Source: a phage
Sequence record: PZ445440.1
Reading direction: 5' to 3' (one strand)
DNA length: 64,000 bases
This document shows positions 1 to 51,630 of this stretch, in pieces. Under the pieces are notes generated by a model that worked only from the letters and a program-made list of their open reading frames with translations, was not told the DNA's origin and made no database searches. A program made the translations under genes and the position numbers. How positions within the stretch are numbered: position 1 is the first letter of the stretch; every line of letters starts with the position of its first letter.

Positions 1-315
1 TGACCAAAGATACTGAACATAATCCTGAATAGCTTTCTTCTTCCACTCAACTAGTTCTCTTTTTGAACCAGGATTTATCGTGTTGAGTGTATAGTTAAAG
101 CAAATACCTAATTCGTTACAACGTTTAACGTAATCTTCTAACATCTTTTTGTCAACGTCAGGAAGCCTAAAATCAGGTCTGGCTGCTACAAAAGCCATTT
201 CTCTTGTAGAGCCGTATACTTCATTTATCAAGCTATTAGGATAAGTTTTATTGAGCTCTACGATTTTATCAAGAAGAGCTAAATCAAAATTCGTTCCGAT
301 TTTAAAAGTATTCAT
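1..315 (-). CDS. hypothetical protein, N-terminal 105 aa only (gene runs past window start); distal member of the sugar-nucleotide cluster
   Basis: ATG at 315 on minus strand, open to position 1 (MNTFKIGTNFDLALLDKIVELNKTYPNSLINEVYGSTRE...); absent from ORF track because truncated; no family recognised. Confidence 0.4.
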   Translation of the reverse strand, partial: MNTFKIGTNFDLALLDKIVELNKTYPNSLINEVYGSTREMAFVAARPDFRLPDVDKKMLEDYVKRCNELGICFNYTLNTINPGSKRELVEWKKKAIQDYVQYLWS

Positions 316-371
316 TTTTTTGCATCTCGCGTTAATTGATGCGATGGTTTTTGCAGGTCTTACTTAAATTA

Positions 372-758
372 TTATAGATTCGGTTTATATGATTTAAATG
401 TTTCGAATTCGCCTTTATTCATAAGAGCTTTGAATTCGTCAGGACGCATAGCTTTGTCGTCGATAATCCAATCATATACTGGTTTATGTGTTAGCAAATT
501 ATGGTACTTCAATCCAATGTTTGCTAAGTTCTGAATCAGACTTGGGAGAATGTCGATTGCTATACGACCAGGACCTACTGACTTCATACCGCGAGCAGTG
601 TAAAGCGTTATGGTATGCCCTGCATCATACAGGGCATTAATGGCAGACACCATTTCGACGTCTGGTTTGAAGTTCACATAATCACGGTTGTTATTCCACT
701 CTGTTATACAATCATCGACATCAAAACAAAGATTAAGCATGTTTTCTACACGGTGCAT
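372..758 (-). CDS. small HAD-superfamily phosphatase-like protein
   Basis: LNLCFDVDDCITEW (HAD motif I DxD), TLYTARG, HKP..IIDDK; ATG at 758 overlaps upstream stop (TAATG). Confidence 0.5.
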   Translation of the reverse strand: MHRVENMLNLCFDVDDCITEWNNNRDYVNFKPDVEMVSAINALYDAGHTITLYTARGMKSVGPGRIAIDILPSLIQNLANIGLKYHNLLTHKPVYDWIIDDKAMRPDEFKALMNKGEFETFKSYKPNL

Positions 759-2443
759 TAGATTCGTTCCCATTGATGAGTGATATCGCCACCGATTGGA
801 CGATAGGAAACACCAGTTTCTTTATCAGTTAGTACCCATTTACCAGGATTTTTTGTAATAAGAGTAGCCGTTACAGGTTCTGCTACGTCATAACTAATAG
901 AGCCGTCTTGAAGTACACGGCCCATGTTACGTAATTGCTTAGTCAGAAGTTCCATACCTTTATAATATGCGGCTACCGCTTTAAGTGGATTATTCTTGAA
1001 ATAACCACCTAATGCAATCCAGATAATTGCCACCGCCAAATGATGATACTCGTTAAACGAACTCATCTTTCCATATTTGTAAATTAATGGATTGATGTTA
1101 ATAGTCACATTACAAGTTGTTTCATCAATAGTAAACTGTCCCCAGGTCGGATTAGCATTGAATTCATCATAACCTGAAACAGCGTAAAGCACTTTAGCTT
1201 CATCGTACAATTTTGGCCCGTAAATCTTGGTTTCACCAAAATATCCACGAGGGTCGATAAACTTGACTTCGCCATTATCAGTAATCATAGTATTACTGAA
1301 GTTCGGGTCACCATGAATAACAGAGTACTGTCCCTGAGAACGGTTATGATAACGAATAAGGTGTTCTAAAGCTTGTTTCAACATTGGCTTCAGACGTCCA
1401 ATCTTAGTGTAGTTCACATGTGTGATTTTACCAAATGAATCAATCAATGGTTGAATGCTTTCACAACGATCAATAACTTTCGTATAGAATTCTTTAGTGA
1501 AATCACGACGGACAGTTTCAGGACTTACAAAATAAGTGTCTGTGCTGAATTTCAGTGCATCTAAAATTGCATCAACAATTTGTGGACGAGCAAGACTTGA
1601 TTTGGATTTAATATATTCAAATGCCGGCTTACCTTTAATGCGTTCCATTTCAAAGTTATTTTCATTAACAGAAACTAACTGAGGAACTGAATCTGATTTC
1701 ACTTTCAAGTACCACGAAATCTCATCTTTCTGAAGAGCTCGACCCTGTTCGGTTAATGCGAATTTAGTTACAGTTTCTTCACCAATTTCAACTGCATTAA
1801 AACTACGATTAAGTTCACGAACTTCATGAGCTTTTTCAAGTTTAGGCATATCACCTAAATCAATTAGATTCATAAGCTCTGATTTATTGAATGCGCCGCT
1901 GTAAAGGAATTCTACGAAATCACGTCCTTTGCAGTATTCATGAATTTCCTCATCAGTAGAACCCATATAGAATTCCCAGTCTTTGAACTGATAAATTCCT
2001 ACAACATTACCGCCTGTTGCACCTACATTAGTGATATTTTCACCGTCGAAATTATATCGACATTCGTCACCCTTAACATAGATTGCGTTAACATTCCAAG
2101 ACCATGAACCAAAATCAGGAATAATATCACACCAGTTAACAATTACGTTATGGCCGTCTAAATCTTTGTGTAATTTAGCAAGAGCATAAGCAGAACCATA
2201 CGCTTCATCAACTGTACGAATAGTCACATTGAACCCTTCTTGCTCACAATAAGCTCGAACAGTTTCAGCAAATTTTGAATGAACTACTACAATAATTTCA
2301 TCTGCGCCAAGGTCAGAATAAATTGTATACAAATTGCTCAGAATAGTGTCTTGTTTATAGTTAACAAGCACCTTAGGAATATGATGCGTTATTGGATACA
2401 AACGAGTTGCCAGTCCAGCACCAAGAATAACAGCTTTTTTCAT
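758..2443 (-). CDS. bifunctional sugar-1-phosphate nucleotidyltransferase (N-term) / APH-type anomeric sugar kinase (C-term)
   Basis: N-term MKKAVILGAGLATRLYPIT matches GxGxRLxPxT of RmlA/GlmU-type pyrophosphorylases; C-term VIHGDPNFSNTMI..FIDPRG matches HGDxxxxN and DxG of aminoglycoside/choline-kinase fold. Confidence 0.75.
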   Translation of the reverse strand: MKKAVILGAGLATRLYPITHHIPKVLVNYKQDTILSNLYTIYSDLGADEIIVVVHSKFAETVRAYCEQEGFNVTIRTVDEAYGSAYALAKLHKDLDGHNVIVNWCDIIPDFGSWSWNVNAIYVKGDECRYNFDGENITNVGATGGNVVGIYQFKDWEFYMGSTDEEIHEYCKGRDFVEFLYSGAFNKSELMNLIDLGDMPKLEKAHEVRELNRSFNAVEIGEETVTKFALTEQGRALQKDEISWYLKVKSDSVPQLVSVNENNFEMERIKGKPAFEYIKSKSSLARPQIVDAILDALKFSTDTYFVSPETVRRDFTKEFYTKVIDRCESIQPLIDSFGKITHVNYTKIGRLKPMLKQALEHLIRYHNRSQGQYSVIHGDPNFSNTMITDNGEVKFIDPRGYFGETKIYGPKLYDEAKVLYAVSGYDEFNANPTWGQFTIDETTCNVTININPLIYKYGKMSSFNEYHHLAVAIIWIALGGYFKNNPLKAVAAYYKGMELLTKQLRNMGRVLQDGSISYDVAEPVTATLITKNPGKWVLTDKETGVSYRPIGGDITHQWERI

Positions 2444-2484
2444 GTTGTGGTCCTCATTGGTAAGTAGAAGTATTGTACACTATT

Positions 2485-2628
2485 CTAGTTAAAGCATTCA
2501 TACTTCGCTTGTAGTCCAATCATAATCCATCCAATTACAAGTGTTGGAATCATTACTGGAGCCGTTAAGCTCCAGTAGATAGTCATGACAAGCATCAATA
2601 GTAAAAGTCCTATTGTTATTGTTTTCAT
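2485..2628 (-). CDS. small hydrophobic protein (47 aa)
   Basis: hand translation MKTITIGLLLLMLVMTIYWSLTAPVMIPTLVIGWIMIGLQAKYECFN; ATGA overlap with upstream SIS gene stop. Confidence 0.35.
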   Translation of the reverse strand: MKTITIGLLLLMLVMTIYWSLTAPVMIPTLVIGWIMIGLQAKYECFN

Positions 2629-3260
2629 TGTTCGCCTCGTAACATGGCACCTAGTGCGCCGCCTGGATGGAACTTAAGGAAATCATTAGAGGTAAATCCA
2701 CGTTCAGACGAAAGGTTGATAGCGAACGTATCGATAAGCGCTAACAACAATGTAGTAGACATTGTCGGAGCTAAAGAGTTCTCGTCAACTTCTACCGCGA
2801 TACCGGTACAGAACGTATAATCAAAAAGAGCTTCGTATTCTTGTGGAATGTCAGGGTTACAATGTAACAGAATCTGTTTAACCTGAGGACGAATCATACG
2901 AAGATGTTTAGCAACACCTATCATTTCTTCAGTCTTACCAGAACGACTGATGTGAACTAATACATCATTAGGTGCAATAAATCCTGCGTCGCCATGAGAA
3001 TAATGCCCGGTGTTCAAGTACATACTCGGGATACCTAGTGAAGCAAAAGTCTCGGAAGCTTTAGTTGCGATATTAGCATTCTTACCAACACCTGTAATAA
3101 TTACACGACTTTCGTAATTACTCAGTCCAGGGCGACGAAGAGTTTCAAGAATAGCATTATATCGGGCAGGGTTTTGACTAATTATTTTAGCCATAGTGGC
3201 AAGAGATGAAGCTTGTTTTACGATTGCGTCAATAGCGATAGTGATTGGTGTAGTTTTCAT
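2625..3260 (-). CDS. SIS-domain sugar-phosphate isomerase, KdsD/GutQ (arabinose-5-phosphate isomerase)-like, no CBS domains
   Basis: ITGVGKNANIATKASETFASLGIPS...HGDAG...ISRSGKTEE and LAPTMSTT...FHPGGALG align with E. coli KdsD SIS domain from memory. Confidence 0.8.
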   Translation of the reverse strand: MKTTPITIAIDAIVKQASSLATMAKIISQNPARYNAILETLRRPGLSNYESRVIITGVGKNANIATKASETFASLGIPSMYLNTGHYSHGDAGFIAPNDVLVHISRSGKTEEMIGVAKHLRMIRPQVKQILLHCNPDIPQEYEALFDYTFCTGIAVEVDENSLAPTMSTTLLLALIDTFAINLSSERGFTSNDFLKFHPGGALGAMLRGEQ

Positions 3261-3300
3261 ATTTCTCTCATTTAATTAGTTGGCCATCCTTGGCATTATA

Positions 3301-6012
3301 TCAAAAATCAAACATATCGAACAGAGATGCTTTCTTCTCGTAATCGAGTTTCGCTGCTGATGTGAATCCTTCAAGTGGTTTAATAAATGTCTTCTCAAGG
3401 AGAACAGTGTAGTCCATCCAATGAAGTACATCATCTTTGATTAAATCAGTGATTTCCGTACCAGAAGGCCATGCGATACATTTATCACCGAACGGGTTTC
3501 CATCACGTAAAGGCAGAACGTATACCTTTTCGCCTTCTACAACTTGTGGAGCATCAATATTACCTTTGATAGCTCGGTTATATGTCAGAATTCCACGAAT
3601 ATGGAATGGGCATTTAGGTCCTGGATATCCACCTACATCATATTTAGCAATGTTATTCGCAGAAGATACCGACGCGATGCTAATATAATTCAATTGACGG
3701 AATTCTTTTTCAAACTCTTTAAAATATTCTTGTAATGATTCTTCACCTTCTTGAAGCATACGACGAATACATTCTTTAAGAGCTTTCTGTACTGCTTTAG
3801 GGGTCGAAGATTTCTGAGTTTCTAGACCCATGATTTTGAGTTTAGGCTCAGCGTAACGAGTACCTTCCATATCCCACACGTTTAATGCATAACGTTTCTT
3901 ACCAGTCCAGAATCCACCAATACCTTTAGAACCGAGCGGAGGACCAGCGATAGCTTCTCGGTCCATGAACATTAAGTGTTGTTTATTGTTCATGTATTCA
4001 CACATTTCACGGAAACCTCTATCAATAGCAGGTTCCATACGTTCACGTGCAAACTTATCTAAGAAGTCTACCCAATGGTTGGTATCACGGAATTTAGATT
4101 CACCAACCTTATCGATAATTTTATCAGCAGATACGTAAATAGAGTCGGTATCACCATAAAGAACGAAAGCTTCACCTTCTGTACCACAAACTTCATTCAG
4201 ATATTCATTAACTTTACGTTCAATCCACTGTAAAGCCATTTGCCCAAATGTTGTGATTGCAGTAGCATTACGCAAATCATAATAACGGAACCAAACGTTT
4301 CCAAGTGCACCATAAAGTGAGTTGATAAGCAATTTACGGTTAATTTGTGCAGTCATACCTGCAACTTCAGTACGTTGAGCTCTAAACAACATTTCATTAA
4401 GAGATTTAGCAGACAACTTTTTAATCTTTTCTTTAATCTCATCACTGAAGTCGAAACGATAATCAACATCTAATGGTTCGTCAACAGAAAGATTAGGATT
4501 ATGCAATGCCTCTTTAATTATTTCACCATTACGTTGAGCTGCAAGCATGTAACCTTTATGTTCTTTACGTTGATTAAAGACCTTAGTGATTTCAGTTGGA
4601 ACTACACCATCACGGTCTTTATAATACATCATGCCGTTAGGAGAGCAACTGTACACATCTGAAGGACGTTCAGCGATTGCGTTAATATAATCATGCAGTG
4701 GAGCTACTTTAAACGTTCCTGCTATTGTTTCCGGGCTAATATTCACTTGGCGAATAATACTTGGATACAGAGATGTAAGGTCGAAACTCATTACATATTT
4801 GTATCGATTTGGAATAGGTTCCTTAACAAAAGCGCCAGGATAAGGTTGAACCGGATGAGAACGACCTTGTGGAATCACCTTGTTCTGCTCTTTAAGGCTA
4901 TTAAAAATAATAGCATCCCATGTTTTAATTGGGCTAAACACAGATTGAATCTGTATCTTAGCATAATAACCCATGTCCAAACTCAAGTTGATGAACTGAC
5001 GCTTAGCATCAATTTGCAATACACGATACACGTCGATAATGTTATAAGAAATATATCGTTGGTGATTGCTTTCACGAAGCTTAGAAATAGGGCCGTCATA
5101 TTTCAGTTTACCGACGTTCAATTCAAATTCTGAAATGTAATCCAGAGAATACGACGGTTGATTGGTAAAAGAGAATTTTTTGTAAAGGTCAATGTAATCA
5201 AGAACAGAGATACCGAACAATGTAATGATTTCACGAGAACCATACATGTTTTCGATAACTTTAACACGAGTTTTACGATGTGGTGATAAACGTTTCGCAG
5301 TAGATTCGCCAAAAATATTCTTGATTCTGTTATACACATATGGAATATCAAATGACTCAACGTTCCATCCAGTCAAAATGACAGGAGTTTTCTGTTGCCA
5401 GAAGTTGAGATATTCCATCAACAATTCTTTTTCGTTATCGAACGGCATATAAACAATTTTGTCGATAATTTCGGATGGAACTTCATCACCGCCTTGTTCT
5501 TGAAGCTTAGCAGCGATTTCAATAGACCATTCTTCTACATTACCATATGGAGAATTCAATAGATCAAATACGTAGAACCTGTCGTCAATTGAGTCATAAT
5601 GGGTGATAGCATCAATCGGATGTTTTGCTTGTGACGGCTCAGGGAACCCATCCGGAGATGTTACTTCGATGTCGAAGTTAGCCACACGAATTTTTGTATG
5701 GTCGTATTTGATTTCATAGTTATAAGTGTCAGACAAATACGCTAATTTGAAATCGTCCATGCCAAGTGCTTCAAGTCCGATATCTTCCATGCGTTTAATC
5801 CATTGTGAGGCATCACGCATATTAGCGAACAACTTACGAGTACACGGCTTACCGTAGATATCGAAATATTTCGTAGCCTGACTTTCTGGACAATGAGCAA
5901 ACAGTGATGGTTTATATTCTACTTCACGAGTACGTTCACGGCCATTAGAATCGATGTAACGTTCAAAAATTGAATCACCAATCTGTTCAACCGTTAAGTA
6001 AAATTCTTTCAT
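3301..6012 (-). CDS. 43: DNA polymerase (family B), gp43
   Basis: 903 aa; MKEFYLTVEQIGDSIFERYIDSNGRERTREVEYKPSLFAHCPESQATKYF..., DIE exo motif, YGDTDS polymerase motif; matches RB69 gp43 from memory. Confidence 0.98.
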   Translation of the reverse strand: MKEFYLTVEQIGDSIFERYIDSNGRERTREVEYKPSLFAHCPESQATKYFDIYGKPCTRKLFANMRDASQWIKRMEDIGLEALGMDDFKLAYLSDTYNYEIKYDHTKIRVANFDIEVTSPDGFPEPSQAKHPIDAITHYDSIDDRFYVFDLLNSPYGNVEEWSIEIAAKLQEQGGDEVPSEIIDKIVYMPFDNEKELLMEYLNFWQQKTPVILTGWNVESFDIPYVYNRIKNIFGESTAKRLSPHRKTRVKVIENMYGSREIITLFGISVLDYIDLYKKFSFTNQPSYSLDYISEFELNVGKLKYDGPISKLRESNHQRYISYNIIDVYRVLQIDAKRQFINLSLDMGYYAKIQIQSVFSPIKTWDAIIFNSLKEQNKVIPQGRSHPVQPYPGAFVKEPIPNRYKYVMSFDLTSLYPSIIRQVNISPETIAGTFKVAPLHDYINAIAERPSDVYSCSPNGMMYYKDRDGVVPTEITKVFNQRKEHKGYMLAAQRNGEIIKEALHNPNLSVDEPLDVDYRFDFSDEIKEKIKKLSAKSLNEMLFRAQRTEVAGMTAQINRKLLINSLYGALGNVWFRYYDLRNATAITTFGQMALQWIERKVNEYLNEVCGTEGEAFVLYGDTDSIYVSADKIIDKVGESKFRDTNHWVDFLDKFARERMEPAIDRGFREMCEYMNNKQHLMFMDREAIAGPPLGSKGIGGFWTGKKRYALNVWDMEGTRYAEPKLKIMGLETQKSSTPKAVQKALKECIRRMLQEGEESLQEYFKEFEKEFRQLNYISIASVSSANNIAKYDVGGYPGPKCPFHIRGILTYNRAIKGNIDAPQVVEGEKVYVLPLRDGNPFGDKCIAWPSGTEITDLIKDDVLHWMDYTVLLEKTFIKPLEGFTSAAKLDYEKKASLFDMFDF

Positions 6013-17633: not shown

Positions 17634-18104
17634 TTAATCATGTTTCCACACCCCATCGGTATTTGACCAAAGTCGCTGATTATCTGATCCTCGCCACAGC
17701 TTTTTAGTCGGAAGATTTTTCTCATACTTCCCATCAATAATAACATCAACATATTTAAGCATTTCTAGTTGTTTAATATCTTCAAACTTATATCCTGTCC
17801 ACAACCAAATGCTTTTATTGGGATAAAGATTTTTTACTGTTTGAGCAATGCGATGAATAACATCTCGGTTATCAGGATAGAGAGGGTCACCTCCGGTTAT
17901 AGTTAATCCTTCTATATAATCATTATTCAAACATTCAATTAATTGTTCTAGTGTTTCACCGGTGAATGGAACACCATTTCTAGCATTCCATGTTGATTTA
18001 TTATAACACCCTTCACATTTATGCAAACAACCTGTAACGAAAAGAACGACCCTGCAACCAGGGCCATTCACAAAATCGCAAGGATAAAATCTATCATAAT
18101 TCAT
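17634..18104 (-). CDS. nrdG: anaerobic ribonucleotide reductase activating protein NrdG (radical SAM)
   Basis: CDFVNGPGCRVVLFVTGCLHKCEGCYN cysteine cluster. Confidence 0.9.
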   Translation of the reverse strand: MNYDRFYPCDFVNGPGCRVVLFVTGCLHKCEGCYNKSTWNARNGVPFTGETLEQLIECLNNDYIEGLTITGGDPLYPDNRDVIHRIAQTVKNLYPNKSIWLWTGYKFEDIKQLEMLKYVDVIIDGKYEKNLPTKKLWRGSDNQRLWSNTDGVWKHD

Positions 18105-19918
18105 TGGTGTTTAACCCTATGCATGATTTCTTTATTTTTGCCTAGATTAAATCCGCGTTCGTTTGGATTTCCCAAATAACCGCATGTTCTTCTTATTGTG
18201 TTCATCTTTTTAGGATCAGTTTCTCCGCAAACTGAACAAACAAATCCATTTTCAGTAGGAGTCATTTCATGAGTACTTCCGCATGTAAAACATTTATCTA
18301 CTGGCATATTAACACCAAAATAATCTAAATGTTGTGCAGCATAATCCCAGACAGCCTCAAGTCCTTTTAAGTTATTTTTCATATCAGGAAGTTCAACATA
18401 AGAAATGTGACCACCTGTCGCAATGAAATGATATGGCGCTTCACGAGAAATCTTTTCAAACGGAGTAATATTTTCTTCTACTGAAACATGGAAACTATTA
18501 GTGTACCAGCCTTTATCGGTAACATCTTTTACGCTTCCATATTTTTCTGTATCGAGTTTACAAAAGCGATAACAAAGGTTTTCAGCAGGAGTAGAATATA
18601 AACTAAAAGCAAATCCGGTTCTTTCAGTCCACTGTTTAAGATGAGCATTCATTTTAGTTAAAATTTCTTGTCCAATATCACGACCGACAAGAATATTCAA
18701 TTCGTGAATACCGATGTATCCCAAAGACACTGAACTTCTACCATTTTTAAATAACTCAATTATGTCATCATCAGGTTTAAGACGAACCCCGAATGCACCT
18801 TCTTGGTAAAGAATAGGAGCAACAGTAGCTTTAACTCCTTTTAAGGAACTAATTCTACACATCAAGGCTTCAAAACACAGGTCCATTCGCTCGTCGAACA
18901 ATTCAGTAAATTTCTGTTCATTGAACTGTGTTCCAATATAAGAATCTAATGCGATACGAGGAAGATTCAGTGTTACAACACCGAGATTATTACGTCCATC
19001 AAGAATTTCATTACCAGTCGAATCTTTCCATACGCTCAAGAAACTACGGCAGCCCATTGGAGAAACTGGAACTGAAGAACCGGTAATAGCTTTATTATTC
19101 TTAACCGAAATAATGTCAGGATACATTCTTTTGCTTGCACATTCTAACGCAAGTTGTTTAATATCATAGTTCGGATCATCTTTATAAAGATTAACACCTT
19201 CTTCAACAAACATAACAAGCTTAGGGAAAATAGGAGTTATTCCATCACGACCAAGACCTTTAATGCGGTTTTTAAGAATTGCCTTCTGAATCATTCGTTC
19301 AGTCCAATCGGTTCCCGTACCAAATGTAATTGTTACAAAAGGAGTTTGTCCGTTTGAACTAAAGAGAGTATTTACTTCATATTCATAAGCTTGGAATGCG
19401 TCATAGACATCTTTTTCTGTTTTAGATTGAGCATAATTCAGAATGTCTGGTATTTGCCATTTTTCTGCATCTTCAACATGTTTAGCGTATGTGCGTTTAA
19501 CATAAGGAGAAAGAACTTTATCGACATTCGCAAATGTAGTTCCGCCATACTGGTGTGAAGCAACTTGCGCGGTAATTTGTGCCATAATTGCAGTAGCAAC
19601 GCCAATTGATTTAGGAGTTTCAATCTGTGCATTACCAAGCTTAAATCCGTTCTCAAGCATTCCTTTTAAATCTACTAAACAGCAATTAGTAAATGGAAGA
19701 GCAGGAGAATAATCAATATCATGCATGTGAATGATTCCGCTTTCATGCGCATTCATAATAAAAGACGGGACCATATTTTTGGCAATGTGCTTAGACACAA
19801 TACCAGCCATAAGGTCCCGTTGAGTTGGAAAAACACGAGAATCTTTATTAGCATTCTCGTTCAAAAGATCTTTATTAGTTTTATGAATTAATCCTTCAAT
19901 TTCTTTTTCAATTTTCAT
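18101..19918 (-). CDS. nrdD: anaerobic ribonucleotide reductase NrdD (glycyl radical enzyme), uninterrupted
   Basis: 605 aa, C-terminal RRTCGYLG glycyl-radical motif and CxxC zinc ribbon. Confidence 0.95.
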   Translation of the reverse strand: MKIEKEIEGLIHKTNKDLLNENANKDSRVFPTQRDLMAGIVSKHIAKNMVPSFIMNAHESGIIHMHDIDYSPALPFTNCCLVDLKGMLENGFKLGNAQIETPKSIGVATAIMAQITAQVASHQYGGTTFANVDKVLSPYVKRTYAKHVEDAEKWQIPDILNYAQSKTEKDVYDAFQAYEYEVNTLFSSNGQTPFVTITFGTGTDWTERMIQKAILKNRIKGLGRDGITPIFPKLVMFVEEGVNLYKDDPNYDIKQLALECASKRMYPDIISVKNNKAITGSSVPVSPMGCRSFLSVWKDSTGNEILDGRNNLGVVTLNLPRIALDSYIGTQFNEQKFTELFDERMDLCFEALMCRISSLKGVKATVAPILYQEGAFGVRLKPDDDIIELFKNGRSSVSLGYIGIHELNILVGRDIGQEILTKMNAHLKQWTERTGFAFSLYSTPAENLCYRFCKLDTEKYGSVKDVTDKGWYTNSFHVSVEENITPFEKISREAPYHFIATGGHISYVELPDMKNNLKGLEAVWDYAAQHLDYFGVNMPVDKCFTCGSTHEMTPTENGFVCSVCGETDPKKMNTIRRTCGYLGNPNERGFNLGKNKEIMHRVKHQ

Positions 19919-50895: not shown

Positions 50896-51630
50896 TTACC
50901 TTAAGATTTTTTCAATTTTAGAATAAAGCTCTTCTAAAGAGCCGTCGTTTGTAATAACTAAATCGCCTTCTTCAATAGGCAACCCAGCTTCTGTAATATG
51001 TTTATCAGTGGATTCCGTACCAGAGCGAACCACATGAATAACTGTAGCACCCATCGCTCTAGCGGTTTCCATTTCATGGACTTGGCGTGTATCGGTCACA
51101 ACGTAGTAATCGAAATCACTTCCAATATAATCCATATAGTTTAATGCAAAAAGCTTAACCCAATACATACGGTCAAATAAATTAACGACAACATCCGTAC
51201 CGAGGGCTTGCATAAGACGGCGGATTGACCACGTGTCGTTGTTATTATTTATAGCTTCACGCAGGGCTTCGTACGGTTTAATATCTAGATATGAGTATCC
51301 ACCTTCTAACGATGATAATACTTTAACATTATTAATTGGTAAATATTGACTTTGTAAATAAATTAGCGCTTCTTCCATTAATTCAATAACATCCAACTTA
51401 TTGAGATTTAATGGTGTTTCACGGTCGTATCCAATGCCTTCAAAGTATTCGTATTTCAACTCAGTGAATACATCCGGGTTTTCGGCATGTTTACGCTCCC
51501 AAGCTATTGCTAGAGCGTCTTTAATTGGATATGCTAATTGGTATTTTACGGATTTAAAGTTTGAATTAATGTAATCAGCAGTAGTGTCTTTACCACTACG
51601 TTTGATGCCGCTTAAAAAGATTAGCTCCAT
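50896..51630 (-). CDS. 1: deoxynucleoside monophosphate kinase gp1
   Basis: FLSGIKRSGKDTTADYI, DRMYWVKLFALNYMDY, ARAMGATVIHVVR match T4 gp1. Confidence 0.9.
   Translation of the reverse strand: MELIFLSGIKRSGKDTTADYINSNFKSVKYQLAYPIKDALAIAWERKHAENPDVFTELKYEYFEGIGYDRETPLNLNKLDVIELMEEALIYLQSQYLPINNVKVLSSLEGGYSYLDIKPYEALREAINNNNDTWSIRRLMQALGTDVVVNLFDRMYWVKLFALNYMDYIGSDFDYYVVTDTRQVHEMETARAMGATVIHVVRSGTESTDKHITEAGLPIEEGDLVITNDGSLEELYSKIEKILR

What the first reader, a model, noticed from the sequence alone, without database searches (positions are those of the whole stretch)
1..3260. Nucleotide-sugar (probable NDP-arabinose) biosynthesis module downstream of DNA polymerase, where T4 carries imm/42/beta-gt
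Five co-oriented, translationally coupled genes (TAATG/ATGA overlaps) follow gene 43: a KdsD/GutQ-type SIS isomerase without CBS domains, a 47-aa membrane peptide, a fusion of an RmlA-type nucleotidyltransferase with an APH-fold anomeric kinase, a small HAD phosphatase, and a truncated unknown ORF. The parsimonious pathway is ribulose-5-P to arabinose-5-P (SIS), dephosphorylation (HAD), C1 phosphorylation (kinase) and activation to NDP-arabinose (nucleotidyltransferase). That donor would glycosylate 5-hmC in phage DNA. I recall arabinosyl-hmC being reported for RB69-type phages, but I cannot confirm that these specific enzymes have been assigned.
Basis: partly seen in the sequence, partly recalled or inferred. 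Interest (0 to 1): 0.85.

Follow-up and report, generated by a model that had tools for sequence, protein, structure and literature searches.

The report
Known phage UDP-arabinose DNA-modification genes
These genes are the already characterised pathway by which RB69-type coliphages make UDP-arabinose to sugar-coat the modified cytosines of their DNA; the one piece nobody has explained in the papers I could read, a cut-off 'U32' gene at the window edge, may be an oxygen-independent back-up hydroxylase.

Summary
The window is phage ChristianSchoenbein (BASEL Bas46, Mosigvirus, RB69-like), 100% identical over 1-3300. The five minus-strand ORFs downstream of gene 43 are real, and the family calls hold: a single-domain SIS arabinose-5-P isomerase, a 47-aa membrane peptide, a nucleotidyltransferase fused to an APH/choline-kinase-fold kinase, a small HAD phosphatase, and a truncated ORF.

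The module is already known. It was predicted for RB69 in 2018, annotated in this very GenBank record, and characterised biochemically in phage HY126 (proteins 96-100% identical). AfhE phosphorylates arabinose-5-P at C1 and later makes UDP-arabinofuranose. AfhF removes the 5-phosphate.

- The kinase acts before the phosphatase.
- The acceptor base is 5-hydroxycytosine, not 5-hmC.

The 47-aa peptide is a T-even backbone gene. T4 has an unannotated homolog between imm and gene 42.

The truncated ORF is a U32-family protein with no assigned role in the papers I could read. It is the most conserved gene of the cluster. It is often followed by a chorismate mutase, which makes prephenate. It is absent from Acinetobacter phages. 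In uncultivated phages it sits with the glycosyltransferase and UDP-arabinose genes, with no thymidylate-synthase-like hydroxylase nearby. I propose it is an O2-independent cytosine 5-hydroxylase. This is untested.

The parts
3301..6012 (-). Gene 43 DNA polymerase (RB69-type). It is the upstream landmark, not part of the pathway.
   Evidence: 903-aa ORF; annotated as DNA polymerase in MZ501056.1.
2625..3260 (-). Single-domain SIS arabinose-5-phosphate isomerase (RB69 gp55 homolog). Converts ribulose-5-P to arabinose-5-P.
   Evidence: Pfam SIS 9e-10; NCBIfam KpsF/GutQ 8e-32 and KdsD 4e-30, SIS half only; PDB 3etn 1e-24, 5uqi, 2xhz. 97.2% identical to the HY126 protein. Function assigned in PMC13326640.
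2485..2628 (-). 47-aa two-helix membrane peptide, ATGA-coupled to the SIS gene. A conserved T-even backbone ORF, probably not a pathway enzyme.
   Evidence: phrog_3610 1e-26. 57% identical, with the same length and position, in Serratia phage LC53. 580 phage records by tblastn. Homologs in T4 (unannotated 49-aa ORF between imm and gene 42) and JS10. No match in the fetched DLP3, Klebsiella and Thanatos loci.
758..2443 (-). Bifunctional AfhE homolog (RB69 gp52:53). The N-terminal domain is a sugar-1-P uridylyltransferase. The C-terminal domain is an APH/choline-kinase-fold arabinose-5-P 1-kinase.
372..758 (-). AfhF homolog (RB69 gp51). A small HAD Mg-dependent phosphatase that removes the 5-phosphate of arabinose-1,5-bisphosphate. 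The start is taken at the TAATG overlap; the GenBank record uses the upstream ATG at 773.
   Evidence: Identical to PDB 9iqw over residues 5-133, with the construct starting at MHRVENML. 100% identical to HY126 AfhF. PDB 1xpj 5e-10; NCBIfam TIGR01689 4e-13. DxD motif FDVDDC is visible in the sequence.
1..314 (-). First 104 codons of a 386-aa Peptidase_U32-family protein (RB69 gp50 homolog). No role is assigned in the accessible literature. Proposed here to be an O2-independent, prephenate-dependent cytosine C5-hydroxylase.
   Evidence: Full-length protein from MZ501056.1: Pfam U32 7e-11. An AlphaFold model of an 87%-identical homolog (pLDDT 94.2) has 5d88 as its top PDB match. Nine invariant Cys in 76 homologs. 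Comparative genomics.
371..398 (-). Promoter-like site (TTTAAA-16-TATAAT, 10 of 12) at the end of the HAD gene, upstream of the U32 gene. Weak evidence only.
   Evidence: The number of such sites in the region is not above the shuffled expectation (10 found against a mean of 12).
50896..51630 (-). dNMP kinase (RB69 gp159 homolog), the kinase co-expressed with the 5hodCMP synthase in the published in vivo assay. Belongs to the wider modification pathway.
   Evidence: PMC13326640.

Best explanation
Window 1-3260 is the sugar-donor half of the known arabinosyl-5-hydroxycytosine DNA-modification cluster of Mosigvirus (RB69-type) phages.

The pathway runs as follows:
1. The SIS enzyme diverts ribulose-5-P to arabinose-5-P.
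2. The C-terminal kinase domain of the AfhE homolog phosphorylates C1 of arabinose-5-P. This locks the furanose form.
3. The small HAD phosphatase (AfhF homolog) removes the 5-phosphate.
4. The N-terminal nucleotidyltransferase domain of AfhE condenses arabinofuranose-1-P with UTP to give UDP-arabinofuranose.
5. Glycosyltransferases encoded just outside the window (the 299-aa protein next to the gene-42 homolog) and, per the literature, elsewhere in the genome (the RB69 gp3 homolog, not located here) transfer one and then a second arabinose. The acceptor is 5-hydroxycytosine, made as 5-hydroxy-dCMP by a flavin- and O2-dependent thymidylate-synthase homolog.

Basis of each part:
- Shown here: gene content, domain folds, motifs, and near-identity to the characterised proteins.
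- Taken from the literature: enzyme activities, step order, UDP as the carrier, and the di-arabinosyl-5hoC content of Bas46 DNA.
- Inferred here, about 0.55: the truncated U32 gene supplies an O2-independent route to the same 5-hydroxylated base.
For: - The window is 100% identical to MZ501056.1, whose annotation already reads 'putative enzyme involved in UDP-arabinose biosynthesis', 'phosphosugar isomerase' and 'phosphatase'.
- AfhF is identical to PDB 9iqw. The neighbouring TS homolog is about 98% identical to PDB 9iqc/9ir2/9iqu.
- Identity to HY126 proteins is 96-100%.
- PMC13326640 gives the pathway, the HY126 AfhE/AfhF activities and the 5hoC chemistry. PMC6024577 predicted the module in 2018. 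PMC13390438 confirms ara- and ara-ara-dC in a Mosigvirus. bioRxiv 10.64898/2025.12.19.695335 states that Bas46 DNA carries 5-arabinose-arabinose-hydroxy-cytosine.
- Four-domain HAD-SIS-NTase-kinase fusions exist in cellular organisms.
Against: - The two primary papers (He et al. 2026, Nat Chem Biol; Mahler et al. 2025, Cell Host Microbe) are not held in the library. Step order and UTP specificity therefore rest on a secondary account.
- Table 1 of PMC13326640 still lists the alternative order, phosphatase first.
- The kinase domain stays below Pfam gathering scores and has no sequence match in the PDB.
- The SIS gene is missing from related clusters in JS10, Klebsiella and Thanatos phages. It is therefore a booster of a host activity (KdsD/GutQ), not an indispensable step.
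Confidence: 0.92

Rival explanations
1. One reading: the HAD enzyme first dephosphorylates arabinose-5-P to free arabinose, the kinase then phosphorylates C1 of the free sugar, and the NTase activates it.
For: The same enzymes allow it on paper. Table 1 of PMC13326640 still labels RB69 gp51 as 'dephosphorylates Araf5p to Ara' and the C-terminal domain as 'phosphorylates Ara to Araf1p'. APH-fold anomeric kinases such as glucosamine kinase and maltokinase, which are structural neighbours, act on free sugars.
Against: [quoted passage not shown] Free arabinose would equilibrate mostly to the pyranose form, whereas the donor that worked in vitro was UDP-Araf. The closest structural match of the phosphatase reported there is a heptose-1,7-bisphosphate 7-phosphatase.
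Confidence: 0.07
2. The truncated U32 gene is not a hydroxylase. It is an accessory redox protein for the flavin-dependent 5hodCMP synthase or for sugar chemistry ('sugar or heterocycle reductase'), or a peptidase.
For: PMC13326640 Table 1 labels RB69 gp50 that way. In T4-like phages it always co-occurs with the TS homolog. The second Cys of the canonical U32 four-Cys motif is missing. Similarity to RlhA, TrhP and UbiU is remote: pairwise E 0.05-0.6 and hhalign probability 5-15%. E. coli Dhakavirus phages make do without it.
Against: - In 37 of 38 divergent viral loci the U32 gene has no TS-superfamily ORF within 10 kb, so it cannot be a partner of that enzyme there. In 26 of them it lies within 4.6 kb of the base-proximal-type glycosyltransferase.
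- It is followed by a chorismate mutase in 54 phage records, and preceded by a DAHP-synthase::chorismate-mutase fusion in L050.
- The characterised U32 proteins are all linked to prephenate-dependent, O2-independent hydroxylation, including C5 of cytidine in rRNA.
Confidence: 0.35
3. The module is a host-takeover or 'moron' cassette that changes host capsule or LPS sugars, as several GenBank annotations suggest (capsule biosynthesis protein, GlmU, phosphoheptose isomerase).
For: Those names appear in related phage records. The NCBIfam hit of the HAD protein is to a capsule-biosynthesis phosphatase family.
Against: The names are transferred by homology only. The cluster always sits with the cytosine hydroxylase, a nucleotide kinase and a DNA glycosyltransferase. 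Arabinose is found on the virion DNA.
Confidence: 0.02

Closest known systems
Afh cluster of coliphage HY126, and RB69 gp50-gp55 (arabinosyl-5-hydroxycytosine pathway; He et al. 2026; Mahler et al. 2025; Lee et al. NAR 2026)
   Same: Same genes in the same order. Proteins are 96-100% identical. PDB entries 9iqw and 9iqc match at 98-100%. This is the same system in a sister phage.
   Different: Nothing of substance. The 79-aa ORF between the U32 gene and the TS homolog is intact here and frameshifted in HY126.
ADP-heptose pathway of Gram-negative bacteria (GmhA, HldE, GmhB); recalled from established knowledge, not tested here
   Same: Same logic: a SIS isomerase makes the sugar phosphate; a bifunctional kinase/nucleotidyltransferase phosphorylates C1 and later activates; a small HAD phosphatase removes the distal phosphate from the bisphosphate. 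The published Foldseek match of the phage phosphatase is to a heptose-1,7-bisphosphate 7-phosphatase.
   Different: The sugar is different (C7 against C5). The kinase and NTase folds of HldE are unrelated to the APH-fold and RmlA-fold domains found here. The product goes to LPS, not DNA.
AmgK-MurU and LicA-LicC pairs (APH-fold kinase plus nucleotidyltransferase)
   Different: They are separate proteins, and the kinases act on unphosphorylated substrates. Neither an isomerase nor a phosphatase is needed.
T4 glucosyl-hmC system (gene 42, alpha-gt, beta-gt)
   Same: Same genomic slot between gene 43 and uvsX. Same strategy of hypermodifying every cytosine through a TS-superfamily enzyme followed by glycosyltransfer.
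   Different: T4 uses host UDP-glucose and needs no donor pathway. Its base is 5-hydroxymethyl-C, not 5-hydroxy-C.
U32-family hydroxylation factors RlhA (ho5C2501 of 23S rRNA), TrhP (ho5U34 of tRNA) and UbiU/UbiV (anaerobic ubiquinone)
   Same: Pfam U32 domain above the gathering score and the U32 TIM-barrel fold. Conserved Cys clusters. A genomic link to prephenate supply. The expected product, a 5-hydroxylated pyrimidine, matches the chemistry linked to RlhA and TrhP.
   Different: Only remote sequence similarity. The second Cys of the canonical motif is replaced, and there is an extra C-terminal CX4CX3CX2C. It lacks the long C-terminal regions present in E. coli RlhA (653 aa) and TrhP (453 aa). 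The presumed substrate is a deoxynucleotide or DNA, which no U32 protein is known to use.

Membership tests
Phage UDP-arabinofuranose / arabinosyl-5hoC pathway (HY126 Afh, RB69 gp51-55) | Orthologs of the isomerase, AfhE and AfhF in one co-oriented cluster next to gene 43 | tested here: met
   same order, 96-100% identity to HY126.
Phage UDP-arabinofuranose / arabinosyl-5hoC pathway (HY126 Afh, RB69 gp51-55) | Linked 5hodCMP synthase (TS homolog with Asn at the ThyA D169 position) | tested here: met
   Just outside the window in the same record: HMRSQNCAVVMQLDF. About 98% identical to PDB 9iqc.
Phage UDP-arabinofuranose / arabinosyl-5hoC pathway (HY126 Afh, RB69 gp51-55) | Enzyme activities (A5P 1-kinase, 1,5-bisphosphate 5-phosphatase, UDP-Ara pyrophosphorylase) and arabinosylated 5hoC in virion DNA | not testable with these tools
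   Taken from PMC13326640 and bioRxiv 10.64898/2025.12.19.695335. The primary papers are not held.
KdsD/GutQ/KpsF arabinose-5-phosphate isomerases | SIS domain with the GxGK and HGD catalytic motifs | tested here: met
   GVGKNANIA and SHGDAG align with 3etn and 2xhz. NCBIfam KpsF 8e-32 and KdsD 4e-30.
KdsD/GutQ/KpsF arabinose-5-phosphate isomerases | C-terminal tandem CBS domains | tested here: not met
   The protein is 211 aa. Matches cover only profile positions 2-153 of 268 (KpsF) and 47-202 of 328 (KdsD), and scores are below the full-length cut-offs. It resembles the single-domain type (3etn).
Sugar-1-phosphate nucleotidyltransferases (RmlA/GalU/MurU/LicC) | N-terminal GxGxRLxP...PK signature and the Rossmann-like NTase fold | tested here: met
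APH / choline-kinase-like (eukaryotic-like) small-molecule kinases | Brenner motif HxDxxxxN plus a downstream metal-binding Asp, and the bilobal kinase fold | tested here: met
APH / choline-kinase-like (eukaryotic-like) small-molecule kinases | Pfam family score above the gathering threshold | tested here: not met
   APH 14.4 bits (cut-off 23.2), Fructosamin_kin 17.1 (22.4), EcKL 16.2 (22). Several homologs do carry a precomputed PF01636 hit.
HAD phosphatases (EcbF/BcbF, 1xpj type) | Motif I DxD nucleophile and similarity to the family | tested here: met
   FDVDDCIT is visible in the sequence. 1xpj 5e-10 and identity with 9iqw. TIGR01689 4e-13 but below the curated cut-off (49 against 162 bits). 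No Pfam hit.
Peptidase_U32 family (prephenate-dependent hydroxylation factors) | U32 domain and TIM-barrel fold | tested here: met
   Pfam 42.2 bits against a cut-off of 22.4. Foldseek top hit 5d88, E 6.5e-8.
Peptidase_U32 family (prephenate-dependent hydroxylation factors) | Four-Cys motif that binds the [4Fe-4S] cluster | tested here: inconclusive
   C192, C203 and C209 align with Cys 1, 3 and 4. Cys 2 is replaced. C158, C233 and a C-terminal four-Cys cluster are invariant and could substitute.
Peptidase_U32 family (prephenate-dependent hydroxylation factors) | Functional dependence on prephenate | tested here: inconclusive
   Genomic association only. A chorismate mutase (Pfam CM_2 1.7e-11 and 8e-8) lies next to the U32 gene in 54 phage records. 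A DAHP synthase::CM fusion lies beside it in L050. This phage itself has no CM.
Peptidase_U32 family (prephenate-dependent hydroxylation factors) | O2-independent hydroxylase activity on a pyrimidine | not testable with these tools
   Needs anaerobic genetics or biochemistry. Even for RlhA, TrhP and UbiU/V, direct activity has not been shown in vitro.

The most novel reading that the evidence does not exclude
The cut-off gene at window 1-314 (386-aa U32 protein, RB69 gp50 homolog) encodes an O2-independent, prephenate-dependent pyrimidine C5-hydroxylase.

It would make 5-hydroxy-dC(MP) when the flavin- and O2-dependent thymidylate-synthase-like 5hodCMP synthase cannot work, as in the anoxic gut. 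RB69-type phages would then have an aerobic/anaerobic enzyme pair, like TrhO/TrhP, UbiIHF/UbiUV and NrdAB/NrdDG.

In many uncultivated phages that carry glycosyltransferase - SIS - AfhE - (DAHP synthase/chorismate mutase) - U32 clusters with no TS homolog nearby, it would be the only hydroxylase. It would also be the first U32 enzyme acting on DNA precursors.
Probability: 0.55. Interest if true: 0.8.

Novelty: already known. Interest (0 to 1): 0.3.

Why it matters
The finding as written matters little. It rediscovers a pathway that was predicted in 2018, annotated in this phage's own GenBank record, and worked out biochemically and structurally in 2025-2026.

The value of the re-analysis lies in three things:
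- It corrects two points of the interpretation: the kinase acts before the phosphatase, and the acceptor is 5-hydroxy-C, not 5-hydroxymethyl-C.
- It removes the 47-aa peptide from the pathway.
- It singles out the one gene of the cluster with no assigned function in the papers I could read.

If the U32 protein is an oxygen-independent cytosine 5-hydroxylase, three consequences follow. It would explain how these gut phages keep their DNA fully modified without O2. It would extend prephenate-dependent hydroxylation from RNA and quinones to DNA precursors. It would also give a small soluble U32 protein on which the still-undemonstrated U32 hydroxylase chemistry could be reconstituted.

Tried and rejected
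- The 79-aa ORF after the U32 gene as a chorismate mutase. It has no Pfam hit and no similarity to the LC53 or Thanatos CM. It is frameshifted in HY126. Rejected.
- The 47-aa peptide as T4 Imm, or as a component specific to the module. It is not similar to Imm. It is homologous to a small ORF present in T4, JS10 and 580 phage records. Rejected as pathway-specific.
- Direct sequence links between the phage U32 protein and E. coli RlhA, TrhP, UbiU or UbiV. Pairwise BLAST gave E 0.05-0.6 and hhalign gave probability 5-15%. Only the Pfam profile and the fold establish family membership.
- AFDB fold search for the nearest U32 subfamily. The library was unavailable.
- Reading He et al. 2026 and Mahler et al. 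2025. Neither is held. I therefore cannot exclude that they discuss the U32 gene. No held paper contains 'U32' together with RB69, Thanatos, 5hoC or Mosigvirus, or chorismate mutase, U32 and phage in this sense.
- PDB sequence search with the kinase domain alone gave no match even at E 10. The fold search was needed.
- Promoter and terminator scan. Counts are not above the shuffled expectation.
- A strict rule that phages of facultative anaerobes have the U32 gene. Acinetobacter phages fit it (0 of 57). About 40 Escherichia phage records (for example Dhakavirus JS10) carry the 5hoC-type synthase without U32. The correlation is only partial.

Full report
IDENTITY OF THE WINDOW. Window 1-3300 is 100% identical to Escherichia phage ChristianSchoenbein (BASEL collection Bas46, MZ501056.1 positions 96479-99778; genus Mosigvirus, the RB69 group). 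About 150 related coliphage records are 95-99% identical. The deposited annotation of these genes already reads 'putative phosphosugar isomerase involved in UDP-arabinose biosynthesis', 'putative enzyme involved in UDP-arabinose biosynthesis' and 'putative phosphatase'.

THE OBSERVATION. All five ORFs lie on the minus strand, downstream of gene 43 (3301-6012).
- SIS protein, 211 aa (2625-3260).
- Peptide, 47 aa (2485-2628).
- Fusion protein, 561 aa (758-2443).
- HAD protein, 128/133 aa (372-758 or 372-773).
- An ORF that starts at 314 and runs off the window.

Only two junctions overlap: ATGA between the SIS gene and the peptide, and TAATG between the fusion protein and the HAD gene. The other two junctions have spacers of 41 and 57 nt. 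The TAATG start of the HAD gene is the one used in the HY126 annotation and in the crystallised construct, PDB 9iqw, which begins MHRVENML. T4 does carry imm.1, imm, 42 and beta-gt in this slot.

FAMILY TESTS.
- SIS protein. It matches Pfam SIS (9e-10), NCBIfam KpsF/GutQ (8e-32) and KdsD (4e-30), but only over the SIS half of those profiles. It also matches the single-domain isomerase structures 3etn, 5uqi and 2xhz, with the GxGK and HGD motifs kept. 'KdsD-type without CBS' is correct.
- HAD protein. It has no Pfam hit. It matches NCBIfam TIGR01689 (4e-13) and 1xpj (5e-10), and is identical to PDB 9iqw.
- Independent support that the four activities form one pathway. Distant homologs of about 900-950 aa in cellular organisms fuse HAD, SIS, NTase and kinase in one polypeptide.

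WHAT IS ALREADY KNOWN.
- Thomas et al. 2018 (PMC6024577) found arabinose in RB69 DNA. They named ORF055c and ORF53_52c as candidates for UDP-arabinose synthesis, within a module between gene 43 and uvsX.
- Lee et al., NAR 2026 (PMC13326640), showed that RB69 DNA carries mono- and di-arabosylated 5-hydroxycytosine, not 5-hmC. The 5hoC is made as 5-hydroxy-dCMP by a thymidylate-synthase homolog that binds a flavin and takes its oxygen from O2. They assigned gp55, gp52:53 and gp51 as isomerase, NTase/kinase and phosphatase.
- The same paper relays He et al. 2026 on phage HY126. [quoted passage not shown] AfhF is a Mg-dependent phosphatase that converts arabinose-1,5-bisphosphate to arabinose-1-P.
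- The window's proteins are 96.4% (AfhE), 100% (AfhF) and 97.2% (isomerase) identical to those of HY126.
- The gene-42 homolog just outside the window is about 98% identical to PDB 9iqc/9ir2/9iqu and carries the RSQN signature.
- A Fineran-lab preprint states that Bas46 DNA contains 5-arabinose-arabinose-hydroxy-cytosine. An AEM 2026 paper reports the same chemistry for another Mosigvirus and calls the older ara-hmC assignment erroneous.

The finding is therefore already known. It is wrong in the order of the two middle steps and in the acceptor base.

THE 47-AA PEPTIDE. It is a real gene. It matches phrog_3610 (1e-26), and Serratia phage LC53 has a copy of the same length and position at 57% identity. 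It is not specific to arabinose phages: tblastn finds it in 580 phage records, including glucosyl-hmC Tequatroviruses. T4 itself has an intact but unannotated 49-aa homolog. That ORF overlaps the imm stop by ATGA and ends 8 nt before gene 42. JS10 has one next to imm. No match was found in the fetched loci of Acinetobacter phage DLP3, a Klebsiella phage and Shewanella phage Thanatos. I treat it as a T-even backbone membrane peptide of unknown function.

THE TRUNCATED ORF. Its full length (386 aa, taken from the GenBank record) is a Peptidase_U32 protein (Pfam 7e-11, above the gathering score). NAR 2026 lists the RB69 homolog gp50 only as 'sugar or heterocycle reductase'. That paper's discussion mentions the two RNA pyrimidine-hydroxylation pathways without connecting them to gp50. 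No paper in the held library links U32 to these phages.

The characterised U32 proteins are these:
- RlhA, needed for 5-hydroxycytidine at position 2501 of 23S rRNA. It requires prephenate and Fe-S clusters.
- TrhP, for prephenate-dependent 5-hydroxyuridine in tRNA. It is paired with the O2-dependent TrhO.
- UbiU/UbiV, for anaerobic ubiquinone hydroxylation, with prephenate as the oxygen donor.

Five observations made here point the same way:
1. Conservation. The U32 protein is the most conserved gene of the cluster. It is 81-89% identical between Bas46 and LC53, Klebsiella and Shewanella phages. The figures for DNA polymerase, the TS homolog and AfhE are 66-74%, 68-80% and 45-72%.
2. Chorismate mutase. 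In LC53 and Thanatos the next gene is a chorismate mutase (Pfam CM_2 1.7e-11 and 8e-8). tblastn finds this CM in 54 phage records. In all 40 rows listed the hits are T4-like phages, and where annotation is present they sit beside the U32 (peptidase) and/or TS-homolog genes. Mosigviruses, including this window, lack it; E. coli supplies prephenate itself.
3. Host distribution. The 5hoC-type synthase occurs in 346 phage records and the U32 gene in 222. No Acinetobacter phage appears in the U32 hit tallies or listed rows, although 57 Acinetobacter records have the synthase and AfhE. Acinetobacter is a strict aerobe (my knowledge). About 40 Escherichia records, such as Dhakavirus JS10, also lack it, so the correlation is partial.
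4. Wider family. The protein belongs to a large, mostly metagenomic family: 268 hits, at 48-58% identity outside the T4-like phages. Nine Cys are invariant in 76 aligned members. An AlphaFold model (pLDDT 94.2) has the only solved U32 structure, 5d88, as its best PDB match.
5. Gene neighbourhoods. I fetched 47 IMG/VR loci with a U32 profile, added six metagenomic loci, and scanned them with HMMs built here.
   - All 15 T4-like loci have U32, TS homolog, glycosyltransferase, kinase, AfhE and AfhF; 13 also have CM.
   - Of the 38 divergent viral loci, 26 have a homolog of the base-proximal glycosyltransferase within 4.6 kb on the same strand, often adjacent to or overlapping U32. Seventeen have AfhE, 10 have the SIS isomerase and 4-6 have CM.
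   - Only one of the 38 has any TS-superfamily ORF within 10 kb.
   - Several of these loci are near-duplicates, so the counts are not independent.
   - One 199-kb contig (L050) reads: glycosyltransferase, thymidylate-kinase-like, SIS, AfhE, a DAHP synthase::chorismate mutase fusion (5.9e-24 and 2e-24), HAD, U32.

In these phages the U32 gene occupies the slot of the hydroxylase, with its own prephenate supply.

PROPOSED MECHANISM FOR THE U32 GENE (inference, about 0.55). It would be an Fe-S, prephenate-dependent, O2-independent C5-hydroxylase of dCMP, or of another cytosine-bearing precursor. It would back up the O2-dependent synthase during anoxic infection. The phage also carries the anaerobic ribonucleotide reductase NrdD/NrdG in this window, so it is equipped for such conditions. 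Points against:
- Similarity to the characterised U32 proteins is remote.
- The second Cys of the canonical four-Cys motif is replaced.
- Some enterobacterial phages lack the gene.
- No U32 protein has yet been shown to hydroxylate anything in vitro.
- I could not read the two primary 2025-2026 papers.

VERDICT. The module is an already known system and this copy is a near-identical member, so interest is low for the finding as written. The lead worth following is the U32 gene that the window cuts off.

Noticed in passing
window 2485-2628 (-); T4 NC_000866.4 26227-26376 (-) = L016 5228-5377: The 47-aa membrane peptide has an intact, unannotated 49-aa homolog in T4. That ORF is ATGA-coupled to imm and ends 8 nt before gene 42. 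The family is present in 580 phage records. Its function is unknown.
   Followed up: partly
window 17634-18104 and 18101-19918 (-): The anaerobic ribonucleotide reductase genes NrdG and NrdD lie in the same window, so the phage is equipped for anoxic infection. This bears on the idea of an O2-independent hydroxylase.
   Followed up: no
L001 4919-5158 (-), i.e. MZ501056.1 95397-95636, just left of the window: The 79-aa ORF between the U32 gene and the TS homolog sits where other lineages carry a chorismate mutase. It is unrelated to that enzyme and is frameshifted in HY126, so it may not be a functional gene.
   Followed up: partly
L050 4414-11083 (IMG/VR UViG_3300011005_000048, 199 kb): An uncultivated large phage carries glycosyltransferase, Tmk-like kinase, SIS, AfhE, a DAHP synthase::chorismate mutase fusion, HAD and U32 in one run. 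No thymidylate-synthase homolog lies within 10 kb.
   Followed up: partly
P0204, P0208, P0209, P0212, P0216, P0228 (homologs of window 758-2443): Cellular proteins of about 900-950 aa carry the Pfam NTase, HAD and SIS domains in one chain; a similar eukaryotic-transcriptome protein (P0211) carries HAD and SIS. In the two sequences I read (P0204, P0212) the order is HAD, SIS, nucleotidyltransferase, kinase. This suggests the same NDP-pentose pathway exists outside phages.
   Followed up: no
L011 8001-14360 (ENA scaffold, 86 kb): A bacterial-looking contig has two U32 genes among NT5C, an NMN transporter, a deoxynucleoside kinase, a radical SAM/SPASM protein and a nucleoside deoxyribosyltransferase. 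This may be a nucleoside-modification cluster.
   Followed up: no
L004 11440-11940 (JS10) and L002 3088-3507 (LC53): Related phages carry a lipoprotein-like gene (signal peptide followed by Cys) between gene 43 and the arabinose genes. This window has no such gene.
   Followed up: no
L005 (Klebsiella phage Clarke_MM3), L004 (JS10), L006 (Thanatos-2): Several related clusters lack the SIS isomerase. The phage copy therefore boosts a host activity rather than providing an indispensable step.
   Followed up: partly
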